A stretch of DNA of 64,000 nt. Source: an uncultured Methylophaga sp. (lineage in GTDB: Bacteria > Pseudomonadota > Gammaproteobacteria > Nitrosococcales > Methylophagaceae). A program made the translations under genes and the position numbers. Below the pieces are notes generated by a model. That model was not told the DNA's origin, did not search any database, and saw only the letters and a list, made by a program, of their open reading frames with translations. This document shows positions 5,846 through 38,489 of this stretch, one piece after another; position 1 is the first letter of the stretch, and every line of letters starts with the position of its first letter. Where the stretch lies: assembly GCA_965215665.1 (NCBI GenBank), contig OZ244110.1, positions 1,627,062 to 1,691,061 on the forward strand, written 5' to 3'.

Positions 5846-6484
5846 TCAATCCCAGATGTATAGGCCTATCGGTGTCGGGTTGTAGGCATTACAAGGGTTA
5901 TTAAGCTGAGGACAATTAGAAATCAACACAATGACATCCATTTGAGCCTGCATTTCAACGTATTTACCGGCTTCGGAAATACCGTCTGCAAAGGTCAATC
6001 CACCTTGTTCGGTGACCGGTACATTCATAAAAAAATTGATGTTGTGCGTGATATCGCGTTTGCTGATGCCGAACTGTTCGTTTTCCGCAACCGCCAACAT
6101 CCAGCTGTCACGGCAGGCATGCATGGTTTTCTTCTCCAGTGCGTAACGCACGGTGTTGGATTCCGTAGCACAGGCACCGCCTAACGTATCGTGACGACCG
6201 CAGGTGTCGGCGGTAATGGTTAACATGGGATTTCCCATATTGGTCAACAACGTGGTGCCGGCAGTCAGGTAAACGTTTTTCTGTTCACGAATGGTATCAA
6301 TCGCGCTGTAGCGTTCAGCAGGATCAGCAACACTGTAGAACAGCGTATCTGCTGCCTGATTGCCGTGTAAATCCACAATCCGTAAGGTCTGGTTTTTCAG
6401 CAGAGGTTGCATCCAGTAATCACCAGCCAGTACCTCTTCGTAACGGACTGCCTGATTAATATTCAAATGACTTTCTTTAATCAC
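5846..6484 (-). CDS. cgdB: Urea carboxylase-associated DUF1989 protein, carboxyguanidine deiminase subunit B
   Basis: [13 protein letters not shown]-like, INFFMNVP and [13 protein letters not shown] motifs; start re-placed at GTG 6484 after an AAAGGA Shine-Dalgarno (the longer ORF-track start overlaps the upstream gene). Confidence 0.85.
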
Positions 6485-6504
6485 GATCTGTTTGTCCTTT
6501 TTCG

Positions 6505-7245
6505 TTAATGATGTGCACACAGGTGATAGAGACGATTGTTTGCAAAACCACGTTGGTTTTCGGCACAGGCATTCAGGCACAGATCGTCTTCAGTGACGGC
6601 GGCAGCATTACGAATTTGATAGATAACGGGGTTTTTCGGATAGGTCGCTGCCGTGTTCATCGGGTGTGGGCAGGTGTGGAACAGCACCAGGGTATCCATT
6701 TCAAAGCGCAGATCTACATAATCACCGGCTTTACTGTGGTTTTCGACATAGGTCAGATTGCCAAGATCATCTGTTTTGATACTGCTAAACAAATTCAGAT
6801 TGGCTGCCATATCGCGTTTATTCAGACCATATTTGGCCAATTCGACTAAAAAGGCCTGTTCGCCACTGATGGTCCAATCATTACGAAACTGTTGGTAATT
6901 TTTGACGCCCCATTTAGCCTCCAACGTAGCATTGGTCAGATTGCCGCCAACGGTATCGTGCCAGCCCAGTGTATCTTCAGTGATTGAGCAAAAAATGCGG
7001 CCCATATCGGAATAGAGACAGTGGCCCTTGGTAAGTTTGAAGGTGTGCTGACATTTCAAGGTGTCGGGAGCGTTGTAGCGTTCCAGCATATTCTCCGGGT
7101 TGTAAAACAACATGCCGACATTGGCACCACCTTCCTGGTCAATCAGCCGCAGGGTGGTGCCTTTTCGCATCAGCATTGACCAATGAGCTCCACCTGGAAG
7201 TGTGTCTTGATATAAAACATCTTTGTCTTGGGTAATTTCAGTCAT
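6505..7245 (-). CDS. cgdA: Urea carboxylase-associated DUF1989 protein, carboxyguanidine deiminase subunit A
   Basis: [29 protein letters not shown] motifs; paired with a second DUF1989 gene upstream of uca. Confidence 0.85.
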
Positions 7246-30553: not shown

Positions 30554-30913
30554 ATGAAGAAAACCAGTCTGACCGTCCTGTTCGCCAGTATGACCATGTT
30601 AAGTGCCTCCGCTATTGCCGATGACCATATGGATTTTTCTACGGTTACCAAGGTGCAATACGTAAATGATTGTATGCAGGCAAATACAAATCTAAACGTA
30701 TATGAAGGCGTGCACAAATGTTCATGCGTGGTGGATAAGCTTGATGAAGCATTTACCCAGACTGATTTCGAAGACATCAGCACTGCCTACATGTATCGTA
30801 ATCTGCCAGCCGATCGCGGTGCACAATTCCGTGACGACGAAGGTTTGAGTGGTGGTATAGATAAATATGAAGAAGTATCAGCTTCAGCTTACAAAGAATG
30901 CAGAATTCAATAG
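30554..30913 (+). CDS. Small exported four-cysteine protein of unknown function (quinoprotein-cluster associated)
   Basis: Signal peptide, QYVNDCM...KCSCVVD...FRDD...KECR; AGGAG Shine-Dalgarno; followed by a terminator. Confidence 0.8.
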   Translation: MKKTSLTVLFASMTMLSASAIADDHMDFSTVTKVQYVNDCMQANTNLNVYEGVHKCSCVVDKLDEAFTQTDFEDISTAYMYRNLPADRGAQFRDDEGLSGGIDKYEEVSASAYKECRIQ

Positions 30914-30932
30914 TTTCTGATTGATGCGAATG

Positions 30933-30963
30933 AAAAAAAGGCCGTTTCAAACGGCCTTTTTTT
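30933..30963. terminator. Bidirectional terminator
   Basis: AAAAAAAGGCCGTTT-C-AAACGGCCTTTTTTT between convergent genes. Confidence 0.85.
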
Positions 30964-30989
30964 ATGCATTAAAGTAGTAAAAATATCCG

Positions 30990-31787
30990 CTAGATTTGTT
31001 TATCCATGCTGTAAGTCATTTCTTTACTGTCATTCACCATCGCTTTTAACACACCATGCTTTTGCGGGGTGAAGTTAAACCGGATACTGGGGTCTTCACT
31101 TATTGAAATGCCTGCCTCAAGCGTAATCAGGTTTTCATCTTCAAAATCAATGACAATTTCTTTCACATAATGCGGTGGAATATAGCCACGGGTTTTTTGG
31201 TCAAACTGTAGGCCACTGTTATTCGGGTGACTTACAACTACCTGTGCTTTTGTGGTTTCGCCAATGCTGGCTTCTCGCATACGAATCTGCATTTTGCCCA
31301 ACCGGGCCATTGCAGCTTCCATGTCTTTACCTGCCGGAGCACTACATCCTCCTGATGCTTTGACGAATTTTGACACCATATGCAAAGAACCATCATTCAT
31401 TTCTGCAATAGCGCGCATATCGGTGTATTGATCGACCCTGACCCGTGTAGCGATATCAATATCACCAAGTGTCGGTGATAAATGGAAATTCGCAGAATAT
31501 GGCATCGGGTTTTTATCGATGATGATATGTATGTTTTTGATGTATTTCTCAGCGGTCTGTGGCTGAACGGATTTCACACTGATTGGAACAATGGCCGCAT
31601 CTTCAGCCCGGGTAGGCGCTTCAAGAATCAAAACATCATCGGCATTTTCATGAATTTTACGATCACCAAAATAAGTTTGTTTAAGCGCTGACCATAAATC
31701 CTCTTCAGCTGTTGCAGCATTTGCAATGAGGCCATGACTCATAAAAACTGCAAATACAGCCCAAAAAATTGTATTTCGCCCCATCAT
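30990..31787 (-). CDS. Quinoprotein dehydrogenase-associated SoxYZ-like carrier protein (fused SoxY-SoxZ)
   Basis: Signal peptide, RAEDAAIVP, IDKNPMP, VKASGGCSAP SoxY-type Cys motif, then SHPNNSGLQFDQ and ISISEDPS SoxZ-like motifs; start re-placed at ATG 31787 after AGGAG. Confidence 0.88.
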   Translation of the reverse strand: MMGRNTIFWAVFAVFMSHGLIANAATAEEDLWSALKQTYFGDRKIHENADDVLILEAPTRAEDAAIVPISVKSVQPQTAEKYIKNIHIIIDKNPMPYSANFHLSPTLGDIDIATRVRVDQYTDMRAIAEMNDGSLHMVSKFVKASGGCSAPAGKDMEAAMARLGKMQIRMREASIGETTKAQVVVSHPNNSGLQFDQKTRGYIPPHYVKEIVIDFEDENLITLEAGISISEDPSIRFNFTPQKHGVLKAMVNDSKEMTYSMDKQI

Positions 31788-31807
31788 TTTCGCTCTCCTA
31801 ATAATTA

Positions 31808-32740
31808 TTATTCCCACTCCAGTTCTACAAACGCAGCGGTAACATTTCGACGATGATATTCTTCAAAAAGTTTCCAATTTTCAGCTTCTTGCCTGCCTAC
31901 CGATTCAATGGCTTGTTCAATGGTTCCAAGATCGTTAATGATGACTCTGATTTCTTCACGTACAGTTATCAGATAGCGCAGTAAATCCTGCCAGCCCTTT
32001 GATTGTTCGCCACTAAAAGCCGATCCGTGCCCTGGAATAATCATTGCTGCATCGCGATCAACCAAGGTTTCAAGCGCATCAATCCAGCCATTAATACTGC
32101 CGTCCAATGCCGGTACACGTTCAACAAATAATAAATCACCGGTCCATAATGTACTGGTTTTCTCATCATAAACGGTTAAATCATGATCGGTATGGGCTGT
32201 GGTAAAAGCGGTTAACGTCAGCAGCCGGTTACCAAGATCCAATTGTAATGGCGAGTCAACCGCAACCAATGTCTCCGCTTCGATAAACTCAGTGCCTTCA
32301 TATGCGTCGCCCAAAATCTCAGAAAACTGTCTGGCAAAATGTTGTTTACGACTGGCCATGGCCGCCGGTAATTTTTCATGGCCAATAAATTCCGGCTCAT
32401 CCATTTTAAATGCGGCGTTTCCCAACACATGATCGGGGTGAACATGGGTATTGATGACATAACAGATAGGCAAATCACTATGCTGACGGATGGCTTTACG
32501 TAATAACTTACCTTCTTGAAAACTGCCGCCGCTATCAATGACAGCAATGCATTGCTCACCAATGATAAAACCAACATTGGCAATGGCTCCCAGATTCTCA
32601 GCATCAGCTTCTTCGTGGCTGCCCTGGTGGTAAAAAATACCTTCAGCAACCTGCTGCACCGAATAGCTGTCTGGCTGACTACTGCTCGCAAAGGCCAAAG
32701 ATGAAACCACAATAGATAGAAAGGAAATCAATATACGCAT
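31808..32740 (-). CDS. Quinoprotein relay system zinc metallohydrolase (MBL fold, exported)
   Basis: Signal peptide, ANVGFIIG, VIDSGGS, THVHPDHVLGN (HxHxDH), AHTDHD, GDLLF, PGHG, HRRNVTAAFVELEWE. Confidence 0.88.
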   Translation of the reverse strand: MRILISFLSIVVSSLAFASSSQPDSYSVQQVAEGIFYHQGSHEEADAENLGAIANVGFIIGEQCIAVIDSGGSFQEGKLLRKAIRQHSDLPICYVINTHVHPDHVLGNAAFKMDEPEFIGHEKLPAAMASRKQHFARQFSEILGDAYEGTEFIEAETLVAVDSPLQLDLGNRLLTLTAFTTAHTDHDLTVYDEKTSTLWTGDLLFVERVPALDGSINGWIDALETLVDRDAAMIIPGHGSAFSGEQSKGWQDLLRYLITVREEIRVIINDLGTIEQAIESVGRQEAENWKLFEEYHRRNVTAAFVELEWE

Positions 32741-34440: not shown

Positions 34441-36219
34441 ATGAAGCTGAAAACATTATCAATTGCAATGATGGGGTTAGCCGCGCCAGGTCTGGTGGCT
34501 GCAGATGAACTCCTTGAAATGCAAAAAAATGACAATAACTGGGTTATGCCTGCTGGTGACTACGCTAATACGCGTTACAGCGAACTGACTCAAATCACTA
34601 AAGACAACGTCAAAGATTTGAACATGGCTTGGTCTTTCTCAACCGGTGTTTTACGTGGCCACGAAGGTAATGCTTTGGTCATGGACGGCACCATGTACGT
34701 TCATACAGCGTTTCCAAACATCGTTTTCGCACTGGATTTGAACAACGATGGCGCCATCAAATGGAAATATGAGCCAAAACAAAACTACGATGAAACTGTA
34801 CCAGTCATGTGCTGTGATACCGTTAATCGTGGTCTGTCTTATGGCGATGGCAAAATCTTCCTGAACCAAGCTGACACAACTCTGGTTGCGTTGGATATGG
34901 AAACAGGTGAAGTTGTTTGGTCTGACAAACGTGACGATCCAAAAGTAGGTGCAACCAGCACCGCTGCTGCCCACGTTTTTGACGACAAAATCATCGTCGG
35001 TATTTCAGGTGGTGAATTTGGTGTTCGTGGTTATGTTCAAGCATATGACTTAGACGGTAACGTGCAGTACAAAGCGTACAGCACCGGTCCTGACGATGAA
35101 ATGCTGATTGATCCAGAAAAAACCATGTCTATGCTGAAACCAGTTGGCAAGGATTCTTCACTGAAATCTTGGCAGGGCGACCAGTGGAAAATCGGTGGTG
35201 GTACTACCTGGGGTTGGTATTCTTACGATCCTGACTTGAACCAGTTCTATTATGGTTCAGGTAATCCATCTACCTGGAACCCAGTACAACGTCCTGGTGA
35301 CAACAAATGGTCAATGTCTTTGTTTGGTCGTGATTTAGACACGGGTATGGCGAAATGGGTTTACCAAATGACGCCTTACGATGAGTGGGATTATGACGGC
35401 GTTAACGAAAACATCCTGGTCGATCAGAAAATCAAAGGCAAAATGCGTAAAATGTTAGTGCATTTTGACCGTAACGGTTTTGGTTACACCATGGATCGTG
35501 AAACAGGTGAATTGCTGGTTGCTGAAAAATTTGACCCAGCAGTTAACTGGTCAAACGGCGTTAACCTGAAAACCGGTCTGCATGATCGTGTAGCGAAATA
35601 TTCAACTGCACGTAACGGTGAAGACGTAAACACCACTGGTATCTGCCCAGCAGCATTGGGTACAAAAGATCAACAGCCAGCGGCGTTCTCACCACGTACC
35701 GGTCTGTTCTATGTACCAACCAACCATGTTTGCATGGACTACGAACCATTCGAAGTTGAATACGTAGCCGGTCAACCATACGTTGGTGCGACATTGAGCA
35801 TGTACCCACCAGAAGGTGATACACACTTGGGTAACTTCATTGCCTGGGATGCTCGTGAAGGTAAAATCGTCTGGTCGAACCCAGAGCGCTTCTCAGTCTG
35901 GTCAGGTGCTTTGGCAACTGCCTCTGATGTAGTGTTCTACGGAACGCTGGAAGGTTACCTGAAAGCAGTTGATGCCCAATCAGGTCGTGAACTGTGGAGA
36001 TTTAAAACTCCATCAGGCATTATCGGTAACGTTAATACCTACAAACACAACAACAAACAGTATATTTCTATCCTGTCTGGTGTAGGTGGTTGGGCTGGTA
36101 TCGGTATGGCTATTCCAAGTTTGGAAAATGACACAGATGGTCTGGGCGCAGTTGGTGCATATCGTGCACTGTCTAGCTGGACTAACCTGGGTGGTGTTCT
36201 GAGCGTATTTAGCCTGTAA
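34441..36219 (+). CDS. xoxF: Lanthanide-dependent PQQ methanol dehydrogenase
   Basis: Signal peptide, [10 protein letters not shown] vicinal cysteines, [18 protein letters not shown] with the extra lanthanide-ligating Asp (MxaF has DYAG); no mxaI nearby. Confidence 0.96.
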
Positions 36220-36257
36220 GACCATTAAGTATTGTAAAATATACTTAAGTTAAAATT

Positions 36258-36296
36258 AAAAACCCGGTATCTTTTATAGATGCCGGGTTTTTTTTT
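36258..36296 (+). terminator. Intrinsic terminator after xoxF
   Basis: AAAACCCGGTATCT-TTTAT-AGATGCCGGGTTTTTTTTT. Confidence 0.85.
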
Positions 36297-36354
36297 GAAC
36301 AAAAACGGCATAGGAAATGTCATATATATTCCCAAAAGAAATAAGGAAGAGAGA

Positions 36355-37230
36355 ATGATCAAACTACAAAAATGGGCAATCCTGGCGTCTGCTCTACTGG
36401 GTGCCTCGTTTGCAGTTAATGCGGAAGAACTGAAGCCAATTCCGGGACAAGAAGTATTAAGGGTCTGTGCGGATCCTAATAATATGCCGTATTCCAATAA
36501 AAACAAGGAAGGTTTTGATAATAAAATTGCTGAATTATTAGGTGAAAAATTAGGCATTCCGGTTGAATACTACTGGTTCCCTCAACGTATTGGGTTTTCG
36601 CGTAATACTATAAAAAAAGAACATCCTGAACGCGGTGGCTATATGTGTGATTTGGCAATGAGCGTTCCTGAGCACACCGATTTTCTGCTGCCGACCAAAC
36701 CCTATTTCAGTTCTATTGAATCGATTGCCTATCGAAGTGGGGAAGGTTATGAAATCAAAAAGCTTTCAGATTTAAAAGAAGTCAATGAAAAACATGGACC
36801 ATTAAAAATTGGTTTGTTTGATCGCGCCATTTCCACCAAAGCTCTCCTTGATATGGGGCTTGGAGATAATATTGTTTATTATCAATTGATGAGTGGCGAT
36901 GTAAATGCGAGCCCAGGTAGAGCGATTGAAGATTTAGCTGCTGGAAAAATTGACGTGATCCCAATGTGGGGACCGGTAGCCGGTTACCACGCCAAAGTTG
37001 CTGATGTACCAATAACCGTTAATCCATTAAATGAATTGGGTCAGCTTCATGTATTCAGTTTTAGTATGGCAACTCGCTATTCAAATAGAGATTGGAATAA
37101 ATTACTGAACAAATTTATAGATCAGAATAAAGCTGAGATAGATGCCATTATTGCTGAATACAATTTACCCTCATTGGAAAATGTCAGTCCTACACCTGCG
37201 AAAAAACCGCGTAAAGATGATGACGATTAA
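36355..37230 (+). CDS. xoxJ: XoxJ/MxaJ-like periplasmic binding protein
   Basis: Signal peptide, LRVCADPNNMPYSN, GFDNKIAEL, MWGPVAGY, acidic DDDD tail; start placed at ATG 36355. Confidence 0.88.
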   Translation: MIKLQKWAILASALLGASFAVNAEELKPIPGQEVLRVCADPNNMPYSNKNKEGFDNKIAELLGEKLGIPVEYYWFPQRIGFSRNTIKKEHPERGGYMCDLAMSVPEHTDFLLPTKPYFSSIESIAYRSGEGYEIKKLSDLKEVNEKHGPLKIGLFDRAISTKALLDMGLGDNIVYYQLMSGDVNASPGRAIEDLAAGKIDVIPMWGPVAGYHAKVADVPITVNPLNELGQLHVFSFSMATRYSNRDWNKLLNKFIDQNKAEIDAIIAEYNLPSLENVSPTPAKKPRKDDDD

Positions 37231-37260: not shown

Positions 37261-37298
37261 AATGGAGGCTACAAAATAGTAGCCTCCATTATTTTTTT
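37261..37298 (+). terminator. Terminator after xoxJ, overlapping the 3' end of the convergent gene
   Basis: AATGGAGGCTAC-AAAATA-GTAGCCTCCATT followed by T run. Confidence 0.75.
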
Positions 37299-37730
37299 CA
37301 GATCATCATTAATTCGGGCAGCAAAACGTGCCTGATCTTTATCCGATACGTTTTCATCCATTAATCTGGTGCCAATAACCACACCATTGTTGCTTTCCCT
37401 GACAGTAATGATGCAGGGCATATCATTGATAAGTTGTTCATTAATCAACATCATTTCTTTTGCATGGGTGATATTGCAAAAGCTGATGACAGTTGATAAA
37501 GGGAAGCTTTTATCTCCACGTTCACGGATCGCCGAACCGATTTCGCTTTTATGAATTATCCTGTAGTTATGCTCGGAGATGGCTATATCCAGATTTACCA
37601 GTGTGTCTTGGTAATTATACGGGCTGTTTTTTTCAAGTATTCGATTAGTGTTTGCCGACTGACATGCGATAATAATCAATACGCTTGAAATCACAATTGC
37701 AGGAATCTTTAGGCGTTCAAGTAGAGTCAT
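37269..37730 (-). CDS. DUF302-family probable lipoprotein
   Basis: Hydrophobic leader ending IIIAC (lipobox-like); SPYNYQDTL..LDIAISEHNYRI, FCNITHA, MPCIITV typical of DUF302; start placed at ATG 37730. Confidence 0.72.
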   Translation of the reverse strand: MTLLERLKIPAIVISSVLIIIACQSANTNRILEKNSPYNYQDTLVNLDIAISEHNYRIIHKSEIGSAIRERGDKSFPLSTVISFCNITHAKEMMLINEQLINDMPCIITVRESNNGVVIGTRLMDENVSDKDQARFAARINDDLKKIMEATIL

Positions 37731-37805
37731 AAGCAAATAAAAATAATAAATTGAAATATAAGAATTTAAGCATAACACCTATAAAAATTCATGAGGTAAC
37801 AAACA

Positions 37806-38489
37806 GTGAAGACAAACCAATACATCGTTTTTTTGTTCGGATTAATATTGCTGTTAAGTGGCAAAGCGTTTGCAGCTCCGGGCATGTCAGAAATTAATAA
37901 TGAGTTATTTGATAAAGCGCATTTAAAAAATATTGACCAGCCGGGCGTGCTGAAATATAAATTTTCCAAAACCAGTTTTGTTGATGGCGATCGTCAGGAC
38001 ACGATTGATGTGATGGTCAAAAATATTCGTAATACCGGGCGTGCAGATACTTATTTTGAGTTTTTTTCCGGTGAAAACAAACGACCATATCAGGAACGTC
38101 TGGATCAGCGTGGCAATAGTGTATTCGTTTTATTTCTGGAGTATGACGTACATGAAATGAAACGTTTGACCGGAGGTGAATGGCGTTATTTTCAACGCTT
38201 ACTGCGTTGGTCATTTGCTGAGGGAGCCGACAAAAAACAAGTCGAAGTGGATTACAACGGTGAGAAGGTAAAGGCATGGCAATATACTGTACAGCCTTAC
38301 GTCAACGATCCGAAAAATGATCGTTATAAATTGTATTCTTCCAAATACTATATTTTCACAATGTCTGAAGAAATTCCTGGTGAAATTTATCAGGTTAAAA
38401 CAGTGGTTCCAGACGGCAAAAACTGGAAAGAAGGTGATCCGGTGCTGGTTGAGGAAAAAGTCACATTTAGCGGTTTCGAGCCACAATAA
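37806..38489 (+). CDS. Exported protein of unknown function
   Basis: GAGGT Shine-Dalgarno, GTG start, signal peptide ending AFA; GNSVFVLFLEYDVHEMKRLTGG.WRYF core; own terminator. Confidence 0.8.
   Translation: MKTNQYIVFLFGLILLLSGKAFAAPGMSEINNELFDKAHLKNIDQPGVLKYKFSKTSFVDGDRQDTIDVMVKNIRNTGRADTYFEFFSGENKRPYQERLDQRGNSVFVLFLEYDVHEMKRLTGGEWRYFQRLLRWSFAEGADKKQVEVDYNGEKVKAWQYTVQPYVNDPKNDRYKLYSSKYYIFTMSEEIPGEIYQVKTVVPDGKNWKEGDPVLVEEKVTFSGFEPQ

What the first reader, a model, noticed from the sequence alone, without database searches (positions are those of the whole stretch)
30554..32740. Uncharacterised periplasmic SoxYZ-like relay module between H4MPT genes and xoxF
An exported fused SoxY-SoxZ-like carrier with an intact GGC cysteine arm and an exported HxHxDH metallohydrolase form an operon converging on a small four-Cys exported protein. 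No soxAX, soxB or soxCD is present in the window. Such families are known to track PQQ dehydrogenases but their chemistry is unknown. Inference: the carrier Cys could capture formaldehyde, formyl or a sulfur species produced around XoxF, and the hydrolase could release it, handing C1 to the neighbouring Mtd/H4MPT pathway or maintaining the XoxF vicinal disulfide.
Basis: partly seen in the sequence, partly recalled or inferred. Interest (0 to 1): 0.68.

Follow-up and report, generated by a model that had tools for sequence, protein, structure and literature searches.

The report
XoxF-linked cysteine carrier and hydrolase
These genes are a genuine but ordinary copy of an already catalogued, never biochemically tested helper set, a secreted one-cysteine carrier protein and a metal hydrolase, that accompanies the rare-earth-dependent methanol dehydrogenase XoxF. 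The small four-cysteine protein beside them belongs to an unnamed family that travels with XoxF itself.

Summary
Window 31808-32740(-) encodes an exported MBL-fold hydrolase (TIGR04559, 396 bits against a cut-off of 280). Window 30990-31787(-) encodes an exported fused SoxY-SoxZ protein (TIGR04557, 284 against 140) with a single cysteine in an invariant GGCSAP loop. The two genes form a tight operon that ends at a bidirectional terminator shared with a 119-aa exported four-Cys protein. The nearby PQQ dehydrogenase is XoxF-type (WDYDG, vicinal CC). The complete 2.97-Mb Methylophaga genome has no SoxA or SoxB.

The pair is a named family ("quinoprotein relay system") already discussed in papers (P. 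putida PP_2677/PP_2678, lucinid symbiont SoxYZ-S2/S4). Its function is unknown.

- The four-Cys protein is a wide, unmodelled family (661 clusters at 50% identity).
- It co-occurs with the carrier (34 of 40 genomes).
- Where it is not beside the carrier, it lies directly upstream of xoxF (16 of 20 loci).

The whole set therefore looks like XoxF accessory machinery.

My best guess, which is inferred, is a mobile cysteine loop whose adduct is removed by the hydrolase, serving upkeep of XoxF rather than C1 flux.

Verdict: a new member of a known kind, of modest interest.

The parts
30554..30913 (+). Exported 119-aa four-Cys protein of an unnamed family. Invariant Cys40, Cys56, Cys58 and Cys116, plus D27, T30, D61 and R93. 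Predicted all-helical.
   Evidence: ORF and sequence. No Pfam, NCBIfam or PDB relative. Conservation. Family size 661 representatives. AF2 pLDDT 83 with no Foldseek match. Linked to the carrier and to xoxF.
30933..30963 (.). Bidirectional intrinsic terminator (A7-GGCCGTTTCAAACGGCC-T7) shared by the converging four-Cys gene and the carrier operon.
   Evidence: Sequence. Fold -17.7 and -17.1 kcal/mol on the two strands, z -5.9 and -4.7.
30990..31787 (-). Fused SoxY-SoxZ-like periplasmic carrier, 265 aa from ATG 31787 (the longest ORF begins at GTG 31817).
   Evidence: TIGR04557 284.4 bits against a cut-off of 140; Pfam SoxY and SoxZ. PDB sequence relatives SoxY 4uwq_B (5e-10) and SoxZ 1v8h (1e-6). 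AF2 pLDDT 86, pTM 0.80. Foldseek TM 0.79-0.87 to SoxY and SoxZ chains.
31344..31346 (-). Codon of Cys148, the only cysteine of the mature carrier. It sits in the invariant GGCSAP loop between the two beta domains.
   Evidence: Invariant in every carrier sequence inspected: the 26-sequence alignment and all 48 carrier ORFs listed. Residues 147-152 have pLDDT below 50 while both flanking domains exceed 90. Single Cys.
31808..32740 (-). Exported MBL-fold metallohydrolase ('quinoprotein relay system zinc metallohydrolase 2'), 310 aa. Its stop lies 20 nt upstream of the carrier start.
   Evidence: TIGR04559 396.2 bits against a cut-off of 280. Closest solved structure is chlorothalonil dehalogenase 6uxu (E 6.6e-16). 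Invariant H99, H101, D103, H104, H183, D202, H238, C64, C93 and C-terminal ELEWE in 74 homologues.
32429..32446 (-). HVHPDH metal-binding motif of the hydrolase (residues 99-104).
   Evidence: Sequence. Invariance.
34441..36219 (+). XoxF-type (lanthanide-type) PQQ methanol/ethanol-family dehydrogenase, 592 aa. It is the enzyme this accessory set accompanies.
   Evidence: TIGR03075 721.7 bits. EWDYDGVNE and MCCD motifs, and six paralogues in the genome.
36280..37230 (+). XoxJ/PedG-like periplasmic binding protein (TIGR03871).
   Evidence: 224.2 bits against a cut-off of 212. Conserved cluster member.
37269..37778 (-). DUF302 protein, a recurrent member of the same neighbourhood.
   Evidence: Pfam DUF302 1.4e-11. 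Present in 13 loci.
37806..38489 (+). Exported 227-aa protein of an unnamed family ('p227'). In Betaproteobacteria it lies directly upstream of the four-Cys gene in the same operon as the pair.
   Evidence: No Pfam, NCBIfam or PDB relative. Present in 30 loci. Order p227, 4Cys, MBL, carrier. Order 4Cys, PQQ-DH, MoxJ2, p227.

Best explanation
What it is (about 0.9 sure). This is a bona fide copy of the 'quinoprotein relay' pair: TIGR04559 hydrolase plus TIGR04557 fused SoxYZ-like carrier, orthologous in kind to P. putida PP_2678/PP_2677. The pair is one part of a larger periplasmic accessory gene set of lanthanide-type PQQ dehydrogenases. That set also includes the four-Cys protein, the 227-aa exported protein, a DUF302 protein and the XoxJ/PedG-like binding protein. 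It is not a sulfur-oxidation (Sox) system.

How it most likely works (inferred, about 0.35 sure).
- The carrier presents its single cysteine on a flexible, sequence-invariant GGCSAP loop between the SoxY-like and SoxZ-like domains.
- That cysteine takes up a small covalent adduct in the periplasm.
- The binuclear-metal hydrolase encoded just upstream removes the adduct hydrolytically and regenerates the free thiol. This is the role SoxB plays for SoxY.
- I rank a thiol or sulfur-type adduct as most likely (S-sulfonate, persulfide or mixed disulfide). It would arise from nucleophile or redox damage around the strained vicinal disulfide and electrophilic PQQ of XoxF. On this view the module keeps XoxF active rather than carrying C1 flux.

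Shown here: family membership, export signals, the single Cys, the mobile loop, a complete metal-ligand set, operon structure, genomic linkage to XoxF-type enzymes, and absence of SoxA and SoxB.

Inferred: that the hydrolase acts on the carrier, the nature of the adduct, and the link to XoxF upkeep.
For: Membership. Both proteins score far above the curated cut-offs.

Fold. The model matches SoxZ (TM 0.81-0.87) and SoxY (TM 0.79-0.83) chains.

Carrier cysteine. The mature protein has a single Cys. GGCSAP is invariant in every carrier sequence inspected. Residues 147-152 have pLDDT below 50 between two domains above 90, which is the signature of a mobile functional loop.

Hydrolase. A full ligand set (H99, H101, D103, H104, H183, D202, H238) is invariant in 74 homologues.

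Operon. There are 20 nt between the hydrolase stop and the carrier start, with an RBS. The hydrolase is found with the carrier in 75 of 82 loci.

Linkage to XoxF.
- All 28 PQQ dehydrogenases next to the pair whose motif region is present have WD[YF]DG.
- TIGR03075 matches in 49 of 50 carrier- or 4Cys-positive genomes (46 above the curated cut-off), against 1 of 30 negative genomes.
- Carrier against four-Cys protein across 400 genomes: both 34, 4Cys only 6, carrier only 11, neither 349. Odds ratio 180, not corrected for phylogeny.
- The four-Cys gene lies directly upstream of xoxF in 16 of 20 loci where it is not beside the carrier.

Not Sox. There is no SoxB or SoxA in a 99.99%-complete genome.

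Thiol-redox context elsewhere. A thioredoxin-like gene follows the pair in some beta loci. A rhodanese (PP_2666) and a thioredoxin-like gene are reported with the homologues in P. putida and M. extorquens (PMC12997753).

Co-expression. PP_2678 is induced together with PedE, PedH and PedF (PMC9795978).
Against: - No experiment exists for any member. RB-TnSeq of PP_2666, PP_2677 and PP_2678 showed minimal phenotypes on alcohols, though without rare earths (PMC12997753).
- Many XoxF-bearing genomes lack the pair, and 6 of 40 four-Cys-positive genomes lack the carrier. The pair therefore cannot be indispensable for XoxF.
- The second copy of the pair in this genome is 272 kb from any PQQ dehydrogenase. 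It sits behind a TetR/AcuR-like regulator, so the pair can serve something other than XoxF.
- In H. denitrificans, genes next to the SoxYZ fusion and SoxH were not thiosulfate-responsive (PMC11582611). This weakens a sulfur trigger.
- The four-Cys protein's C56-x-C58 lies inside a predicted helix. That favours two structural disulfides over a redox-active CxC.
- MBL folds also make dioxygenases, so 'hydrolase' is itself an inference.
Confidence: 0.45

Rival explanations
1. Aldehyde/C1 relay. The carrier thiol traps formaldehyde, or another aldehyde made by the PQQ dehydrogenase, as a hemithioacetal. This is oxidised to a thioester, and the MBL hydrolase, acting like glyoxalase II, releases the acid or hands C1 on.
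For: - The hydrolase has the His/Asp binuclear ligand set also used by glyoxalase II.
- The pair is co-located with alcohol-oxidising PQQ enzymes and, in this window, with Mtd/H4MPT genes.
- PP_2678 is co-induced with alcohol oxidation proteins (PMC9795978).
- PMC11237559 also leans towards a role in carbon metabolism.
Against: - The hydrolase is far from GloB (TIGR03413, 22 bits against a cut-off of 200.8). Its nearest relatives are B1/B2 lactamases and chlorothalonil dehalogenase.
- Mtd/H4MPT adjacency is restricted to a few lineages.
- A protein loop, unlike a free C-terminal arm, would have to enter the narrow XoxF active-site funnel for the oxidation step. This is inference from published MDH structures.
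- H4MPT enzymes are cytoplasmic while the module is exported.
- Transposon phenotypes on alcohols are minimal (PMC12997753).
- Copy B is not near any PQQ dehydrogenase.
Confidence: 0.17
2. Non-redox maturation helper. The pair, the four-Cys protein, p227 and the XoxJ-like protein together assemble XoxF. They would deliver or insert PQQ and/or the lanthanide, or form the vicinal disulfide once during folding. The cysteine would transiently tether PQQ or the apo-enzyme.
For: - Tight gene-order conservation: PQQ-DH, cytochrome c, XoxJ-like, (S1C protease), p227, 4Cys, MBL, carrier, and 4Cys, xoxF, XoxJ-like, p227.
- One natural fusion of a trypsin-like protease domain to the four-Cys domain (P0181).
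- Published evidence that XoxJ/MxaJ act on apo-enzyme (as summarised in PMC12997753).
Against: - XoxF enzymes are made functional in organisms that lack the pair.
- A hydrolase has no obvious job in a one-off assembly.
- Phage contigs carry the carrier alone. That fits a turnover-limited component better than an assembly factor.
Confidence: 0.2
3. Residual or alternative sulfur oxidation. The carrier works as a true SoxYZ with non-canonical partners, for example a XoxF homologue acting on thiosulfate or tetrathionate and the SoxH-like hydrolase replacing SoxB. Sulfur would be oxidised for energy or to detoxify DMS/methanethiol-derived sulfur.
For: - Homology to SoxY, SoxZ and SoxH.
- A SoxH-for-SoxB substitution has been proposed for Sulfurimonas (cited in PMC11237559).
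- Methylophaga species metabolise DMS, and M. thiooxydans has soxCDHYZ and two soxYZ fusions but no soxAB (PMC6548844).
- This genome also has a split SoxY (C-terminus GGCA)/SoxZ pair and DsrE2 near a second xoxF.
Against: - No SoxA or SoxB.
- The family is common in organisms not known to oxidise sulfur (P. putida, Variovorax, Thauera).
- Neighbouring genes are not thiosulfate-induced in H. denitrificans (PMC11582611).
- The GGCSAP internal loop differs from the free GGCGG terminus that Sox enzymes engage.
Confidence: 0.08

Closest known systems
NCBIfam/TIGRFAMs 'quinoprotein relay system': TIGR04557 carrier with TIGR04559/TIGR04558 hydrolases (examples: P. putida KT2440 PP_2677/PP_2678; M. 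extorquens META1p1703-1705; lucinid-symbiont SoxYZ-S2/S4 with SoxH)
   Same: Both proteins score far above the curated cut-offs. The hydrolase-then-carrier gene order is the same, both are exported, and both are linked to a lanthanide-type PQQ dehydrogenase with a vicinal Cys pair (PMC12997753, PMC11237559).
   Different: - There is no TIGR04558-type second hydrolase, and no rhodanese or thioredoxin-like gene within about 10 kb of the pair.
- gltX is inserted between the pair and xoxF.
- The four-Cys gene converges on the operon instead of preceding it.
- The genome holds a second, PQQ-unlinked copy.
Canonical SoxYZ thiosulfate-oxidation carrier (Paracoccus pantotrophus 2ox5/2oxg; Thermus thermophilus 4uwq)
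   Same: Two Ig-like beta domains with TM 0.79-0.87 to SoxY and SoxZ chains, and a reactive Cys after a GG pair at the end of the SoxY domain.
   Different: - One polypeptide rather than a heterodimer.
- The Cys lies in an internal GGCSAP loop followed by a short helix, not on a free GGCGG C-terminus.
- The partner enzymes SoxAX and SoxB are absent.
- It scores below the 'true SoxY' cut-off (82 against 125).
SoxH of Paracoccus pantotrophus (periplasmic MBL-fold protein of the sox cluster, function unknown)
   Same: A periplasmic MBL-fold protein encoded beside a SoxYZ-type carrier. The NCBIfam model names mark the family as SoxH-related.
   Different: No SoxH sequence was compared here. SoxH is thiosulfate-induced and dispensable for thiosulfate oxidation (from my own knowledge of the literature), whereas this family follows PQQ dehydrogenases.
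Chlorothalonil hydrolytic dehalogenase Chd (PDB 6uxu)
   Same: The closest solved structure by sequence (E 6.6e-16 over residues 28-307), with the same MBL fold and C-terminal extension.
   Different: Chd has SYHGDH where this protein has HVHPDH, so the first metal-site histidine is lost (alignment). Chd also lacks the invariant C64/C93 pair and the ELEWE tail. It acts on a xenobiotic, not a protein-bound group.
Glyoxalase II (GloB, TIGR03413)
   Same: HxHxDH binuclear-site motif.
   Different: Only the motif region matches (22.4 bits against a cut-off of 200.8). GloB is cytoplasmic and glutathione-dependent.

Membership tests
[quoted passage not shown] | Full-length match above the curated cut-off | tested here: met
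   284.4 bits against a cut-off of 140, model positions 1-225 of 226.
[quoted passage not shown] | SoxY-like and SoxZ-like domains fused in one exported chain | tested here: met
   Pfam SoxY at residues 47-158 and SoxZ at 180-271 of the 275-aa ORF. The AF2 model matches both SoxY and SoxZ chains. The signal-like N-terminus was read from the sequence; no predictor was run.
[quoted passage not shown] | Conserved carrier cysteine after GG | tested here: met
   GGCSAP is invariant in every carrier sequence inspected, and it is the only Cys of the mature protein.
[quoted passage not shown] | Genomic association with a methanol/ethanol-family PQQ dehydrogenase | tested here: met
   xoxF-type gene 2.7 kb away. 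Genome-level: 49 of 50 positive genomes against 1 of 30 negatives. The second copy in this genome does not meet this feature locally.
TIGR04559 quinoprotein relay system zinc metallohydrolase 2 | Full-length match above the curated cut-off | tested here: met
   396.2 bits against a cut-off of 280. TIGR04558 gives only 186.8 against 300.
TIGR04559 quinoprotein relay system zinc metallohydrolase 2 | Complete MBL metal-ligand set | tested here: met
   H99, H101, D103, H104, H183, D202 and H238 are invariant in 74 homologues. The metal's identity and hydrolytic activity are not testable here.
Canonical Sox thiosulfate-oxidation system | SoxAX and SoxB present in the genome | tested here: not met
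   No match to TIGR04484 or TIGR04486 in the 99.99%-complete genome. SoxCD was not searched.
Canonical Sox thiosulfate-oxidation system | SoxY with a free C-terminal GGCGG arm, scoring as true SoxY | tested here: not met
   The Cys is internal (residue 148 of 265). TIGR04488 gives 82.1 bits against a cut-off of 125.
XoxF-type (lanthanide-type) PQQ methanol dehydrogenase (neighbouring gene) | TIGR03075 membership, the extra Asp two residues after the catalytic Asp, and a vicinal Cys pair | tested here: met
   721.7 bits. EWDYDGVNE and MCCD. Lanthanide dependence itself is inferred from the motif.
Glyoxalase II / hydroxyacylglutathione hydrolase | Match to TIGR03413 above the cut-off | tested here: not met
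   22.4 bits against a cut-off of 200.8, motif region only.

The most novel reading that the evidence does not exclude
The carrier, the hydrolase, the unnamed four-Cys helical protein and the unnamed 227-aa protein would together form a dedicated periplasmic upkeep machine for lanthanide-dependent PQQ dehydrogenases. The four-Cys protein, usually encoded directly upstream of xoxF, would be a hitherto unrecognised physical partner of XoxF. The single-Cys carrier would be a consumable thiol that strips sulfur or nucleophile damage from the enzyme's strained Cys-Cys disulfide or PQQ. The hydrolase would recycle it. That would also explain why marine phages carry the carrier gene alone.
Probability: 0.2. 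Interest if true: 0.75.

Novelty: new member of a known kind. Interest (0 to 1): 0.33.

Why it matters
XoxF-type enzymes are the most widespread methanol dehydrogenases and the main known biological use of rare-earth metals. Their accessory factors are poorly understood. The carrier family is very large (more than 7,800 90%-identity clusters in the word-indexed search alone), has been named in databases for over a decade, and has never been assayed.

If the set keeps XoxF active or assembles it, that would explain part of why recombinant XoxF is hard to produce. It would also give a protein-bound periplasmic counterpart to small-thiol repair chemistry.

This particular copy adds little by itself. 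The useful by-product is the case that two unmodelled exported families, the four-Cys protein and p227, belong to the same XoxF neighbourhood and should be knocked out together with the pair.

Tried and rejected
- A full Sox system elsewhere that would claim this carrier: rejected. There is no SoxB or SoxA.
- A natural hydrolase-carrier fusion as direct proof that they act together: none found. The 614-aa ORF in L083 is an out-of-frame artefact of a high-GC genome.
- A known fold or family for the four-Cys protein and for p227: nothing in Pfam, NCBIfam, PDB sequences or Foldseek-PDB.
- Reading C56-x-C58 as a redox-active CxC: judged unlikely, because both residues lie within one predicted helix.
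- Structured RNA in the intergenic regions: nothing at or near threshold inside the finding.
- Promoter and terminator consensus scans were no better than shuffles and missed the obvious terminator. It was confirmed by folding instead.
- A literature search for SoxH biochemistry returned nothing usable.
Full report
**The observation**

- The ORF at 31808-32740(-) encodes a 310-aa protein. Its N-terminus (MRILISFLSIVVSSLAFA/SS) looks like a Sec signal, and it carries HVHPDH at residues 99-104. It matches NCBIfam TIGR04559, 'quinoprotein relay system zinc metallohydrolase 2', at 396.2 bits against a cut-off of 280.
- Twenty nucleotides after its stop, behind an AGGAGA, an ATG at 31787 opens a 265-aa protein. 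The longest ORF starts at GTG 31817, but that adds ten residues before the signal peptide. [quoted passage not shown] It also matches Pfam SoxY and SoxZ.
- The mature carrier has one cysteine, Cys148, in FVKASGGCSAPAGKD.
- The operon ends at a hairpin flanked by A7 and T7 (30933-30963). The hairpin folds equally well on both strands (-17.7 and -17.1 kcal/mol; no shuffle did as well).
- On the other side of that hairpin, converging, is the 119-aa exported protein with Cys40, Cys56, Cys58 and Cys116 (30554-30913, +).

**Surroundings**

- On the low-coordinate side, on the minus strand, are two Mpt_N-domain methylene-H4MPT dehydrogenase homologues, beta-RFAP synthase, an ATP-grasp protein and HtpX.
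It is followed by a 592-aa PQQ dehydrogenase (TIGR03075, 721.7 bits). That enzyme has EWDYDGVNE, the extra Asp that marks lanthanide-type enzymes, and MCCD, the vicinal cysteines.
- Next come a XoxJ/PedG-like binding protein (TIGR03871), a DUF302 protein, a 227-aa exported protein of no known family, and a two-component system.
- By best matches the organism is a Methylophaga close to M. nitratireducenticrescens.

**Sox elsewhere in the genome**

The genome is one contig of 2.97 Mb, rated 99.99% complete. It has no match to SoxB or SoxA.

The genome does hold two further related loci.
- A second hydrolase-carrier pair (402.7 and 265.7 bits) lies 272 kb from the nearest PQQ dehydrogenase. It sits behind a TetR/AcuR-like regulator and an SCO4226-like protein, with a NifS-like cysteine desulfurase downstream. 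This arrangement recurs in eight other Methylophaga loci.
- A split SoxY (ending GGCA)/SoxZ pair lies 5 kb from a second xoxF copy and next to DsrE2.

**What the proteins look like**

- The AF2 model of the carrier (pLDDT 86, pTM 0.80) has two beta domains. These match solved SoxZ chains (TM 0.81-0.87, rmsd 1.6-2.5 Å) and SoxY chains (TM 0.79-0.83).
- Residues 147-152 (GCSAPA) are the only internal stretch with pLDDT below 50. Yet GGCSAP is invariant in every carrier sequence inspected. A loop that is invariant in sequence but unconstrained in structure is what one expects of a mobile reactive arm.
- Unlike SoxY, the arm is an internal loop followed by a short helix, not a free GGCGG terminus.
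- The hydrolase keeps the whole binuclear ligand set (H99, H101, D103, H104, H183, D202, H238). It also has an invariant Cys64/Cys93 pair and an invariant C-terminal ELEWE.
- Its closest solved relative is the chlorothalonil dehalogenase Chd (6uxu, E 6.6e-16), followed by B1 and B2 lactamases. Glyoxalase II matches only at the motif (22 bits against a cut-off of 200.8).

**The four-Cys protein is not a chance neighbour**

I clustered ORFs from 80 related loci fetched from other genomes, plus the window and the second copy. The hydrolase lies beside the carrier in 75 of 82 loci and the four-Cys protein in 64 of 82.

- In Thauera, Variovorax, Methylibium, Ideonella and relatives the order on one strand is: PQQ dehydrogenase, cytochrome c, XoxJ-like protein, sometimes an S1C protease-TPR protein, the 227-aa protein, the four-Cys protein, the hydrolase, the carrier. 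Often a degenerate hydrolase paralogue, a second carrier and a thioredoxin-like protein follow.
- The four cysteines and D27, T30, D61 and R93 are invariant across 27 diverse members.
- A profile search of 1.84 billion representative proteins found 661 clusters at E<=1e-3 and 409 at E<=1e-10.
- No Pfam, NCBIfam or PDB relative exists.
- The confident all-helical model (pLDDT 83) has no Foldseek match.
- One representative fuses a trypsin-like protease domain to the four-Cys domain.

**Genome-level counts**

I sampled 400 genomes of the GTDB class Gammaproteobacteria, which includes the Burkholderiales.

| | Four-Cys present | Four-Cys absent |
|---|---|---|
| Carrier present (uninterrupted, above cut-off) | 34 | 11 |
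| Carrier absent | 6 | 349 |

- The carrier is present in 45 genomes and the four-Cys protein in 40. The odds ratio is 180 and is not corrected for phylogeny.
- I fetched 20 loci where the four-Cys gene is not beside the carrier. In 16 of them it lies directly upstream of the PQQ dehydrogenase gene, co-oriented with it. The usual order is 4Cys, PQQ-DH, XoxJ-like, p227. This includes four genomes that lack the carrier.
- TIGR03075 matches in 49 of 50 carrier- or four-Cys-positive genomes (46 above the curated cut-off) and in 1 of 30 negatives.
- Every PQQ dehydrogenase next to the pair whose motif region is present has WD[YF]DG.

The simplest reading is that all these genes are accessories of lanthanide-type PQQ dehydrogenases. 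The four-Cys protein is tied most closely to the enzyme itself. The adjacency to Mtd/H4MPT genes seen in the window is local synteny rather than a functional clue.

**What is already known**

- The pair is named in NCBIfam.
- A 2026 review of the Pseudomonas ped cluster treats PP_2666 (rhodanese), PP_2677 (carrier) and PP_2678 (hydrolase) as uncharacterised. It notes minimal RB-TnSeq phenotypes without rare earths. It offers two ideas: disulfide or cofactor maintenance, or protection of PQQ from sulfur nucleophiles (PMC12997753).
- A 2024 study of lucinid symbionts defined fused SoxYZ clades S2 (with a PQQ alcohol dehydrogenase and soxH) and S4 (with fdhAB and xoxF). It concluded they probably serve carbon rather than sulfur metabolism (PMC11237559).
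- M. thiooxydans was reported to have two soxYZ fusions and no soxAB (PMC6548844).
- In H. denitrificans, genes beside the Sox(YZ) fusion and SoxH did not respond to thiosulfate (PMC11582611).
- PP_2678 is induced with PedE, PedH and PedF (PMC9795978).
- Earlier notes of this scan reached the same 'known but untested' verdict on other genomes.

**Mechanism**

Shown here:
- a single-Cys, SoxYZ-fold, exported carrier with a mobile invariant loop;
- a co-transcribed exported MBL enzyme with a complete metal site;
- linkage to XoxF-type enzymes;
- no Sox core enzymes.

Inferred: the Cys carries a covalent adduct that the hydrolase removes, as SoxB does for SoxY.

On the nature of the adduct, I rank a sulfur or thiol-redox species linked to XoxF upkeep first (about 0.35). 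The reasons are as follows.
- Every characterised relative of the carrier carries sulfur species.
- Rhodanese and thioredoxin-like genes join the set in other taxa.
- The enzyme's strained vicinal disulfide and electrophilic PQQ are plausible targets of sulfite, sulfide and thiols.

A one-off assembly role (about 0.2) and a true sulfur-oxidation role (about 0.08) remain open.

Points against all XoxF-centred readings:
- the pair is missing from many XoxF genomes;
- the second copy here is unlinked to any PQQ dehydrogenase.

**Phages**

Seven IMG/VR contigs encode the carrier. Four of these carriers are 38-47% identical to the window protein and keep GGCS[AV]P. Their contigs also carry T4-type terminase, gp23 capsid, gp32-like and RecA-like genes. 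No hydrolase, four-Cys or PQQ dehydrogenase gene lies within 6 kb. This agrees with published remarks on viral SoxYZ fusions. It fits a component whose supply limits a host process.

**Verdict**

This copy is an ordinary member of a known, functionally open family. The extra value lies in placing the four-Cys and 227-aa families in the XoxF accessory set.

Noticed in passing
L005 10377-12148 (-) = G000:C1:2838377-2840148: A second hydrolase-carrier pair (TIGR04559 402.7 bits, TIGR04557 265.7 bits) lies 272 kb from any PQQ dehydrogenase and has no four-Cys gene. Upstream are a TetR/AcuR-like regulator and an SCO4226-like 88-aa protein. Downstream are a NifS-like cysteine desulfurase and a PRISE-like SDR. 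The TetR, SCO4226-like, MBL, carrier order recurs in eight other Methylophaga loci.
   Followed up: partly
L006 10304-11109 (-) = G000:C1:858304-859109: A split SoxY (Tat-like signal, C-terminus DIGGCA, 95.9 bits against a cut-off of 125) and SoxZ (101 bits against 76) lie without SoxAX or SoxB. They sit beside a BepA-like protease, two two-component systems, a 96%-identical second xoxF, pqqB and DsrE2.
   Followed up: partly
L068-L085, e.g. L072 4618-5664 and L071 11144-12337: In betaproteobacterial clusters a second MBL paralogue follows the carrier but lacks HxHxDH (for example ITHTRQEF or ITQPLQEF). It scores below both the TIGR04558 and TIGR04559 cut-offs (185 and 176 bits). It is possibly a catalytically dead partner. 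Fourteen of 88 MBL ORFs are of this kind.
   Followed up: partly
window 37806-38489 (+) and alignment A3: The 227-aa exported protein has no Pfam, NCBIfam or PDB relative but is conserved in 30 loci. The betaproteobacterial members carry a vicinal Cys-Cys (DGSCC) that the Methylophaga members lack.
   Followed up: partly
P0181 (342 aa, metagenomic representative): A natural fusion of an S1C trypsin-like protease domain with a C-terminal four-Cys domain. A stand-alone protease-TPR gene sits just upstream of p227 and 4Cys in several Methylibium-type loci.
   Followed up: no
L111-L114 (IMG/VR contigs), carrier at about 5930-6790: Phage contigs with T4-type terminase, gp23 capsid, gp32-like and RecA-like genes carry the fused SoxYZ-like carrier (GGCSAP or GGCSVP) alone, without the hydrolase, four-Cys or PQQ dehydrogenase genes.
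   Followed up: partly
window 31808-31822 (-), C-terminus of the hydrolase: The last residues, ELEWE, are invariant in 74 homologues, as are Cys64 and Cys93. An invariant free C-terminus suggests a docking or active-site-capping role.
   Followed up: no
window 36216-36298 (+): Sub-threshold Rfam matches (STnc240 at 39 bits against 55; ohsC at 33 against 50) lie in the short gap between xoxF and the XoxJ-like gene. This is probably just a hairpin.
   Followed up: no
G196 (same genus, 10 contigs): This genome has the carrier and the four-Cys gene but only a partial, sub-cut-off TIGR03075 match (280 bits). That is either an assembly or masking gap, or a Methylophaga that kept the accessories without a full-length XoxF hit.
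   Followed up: no
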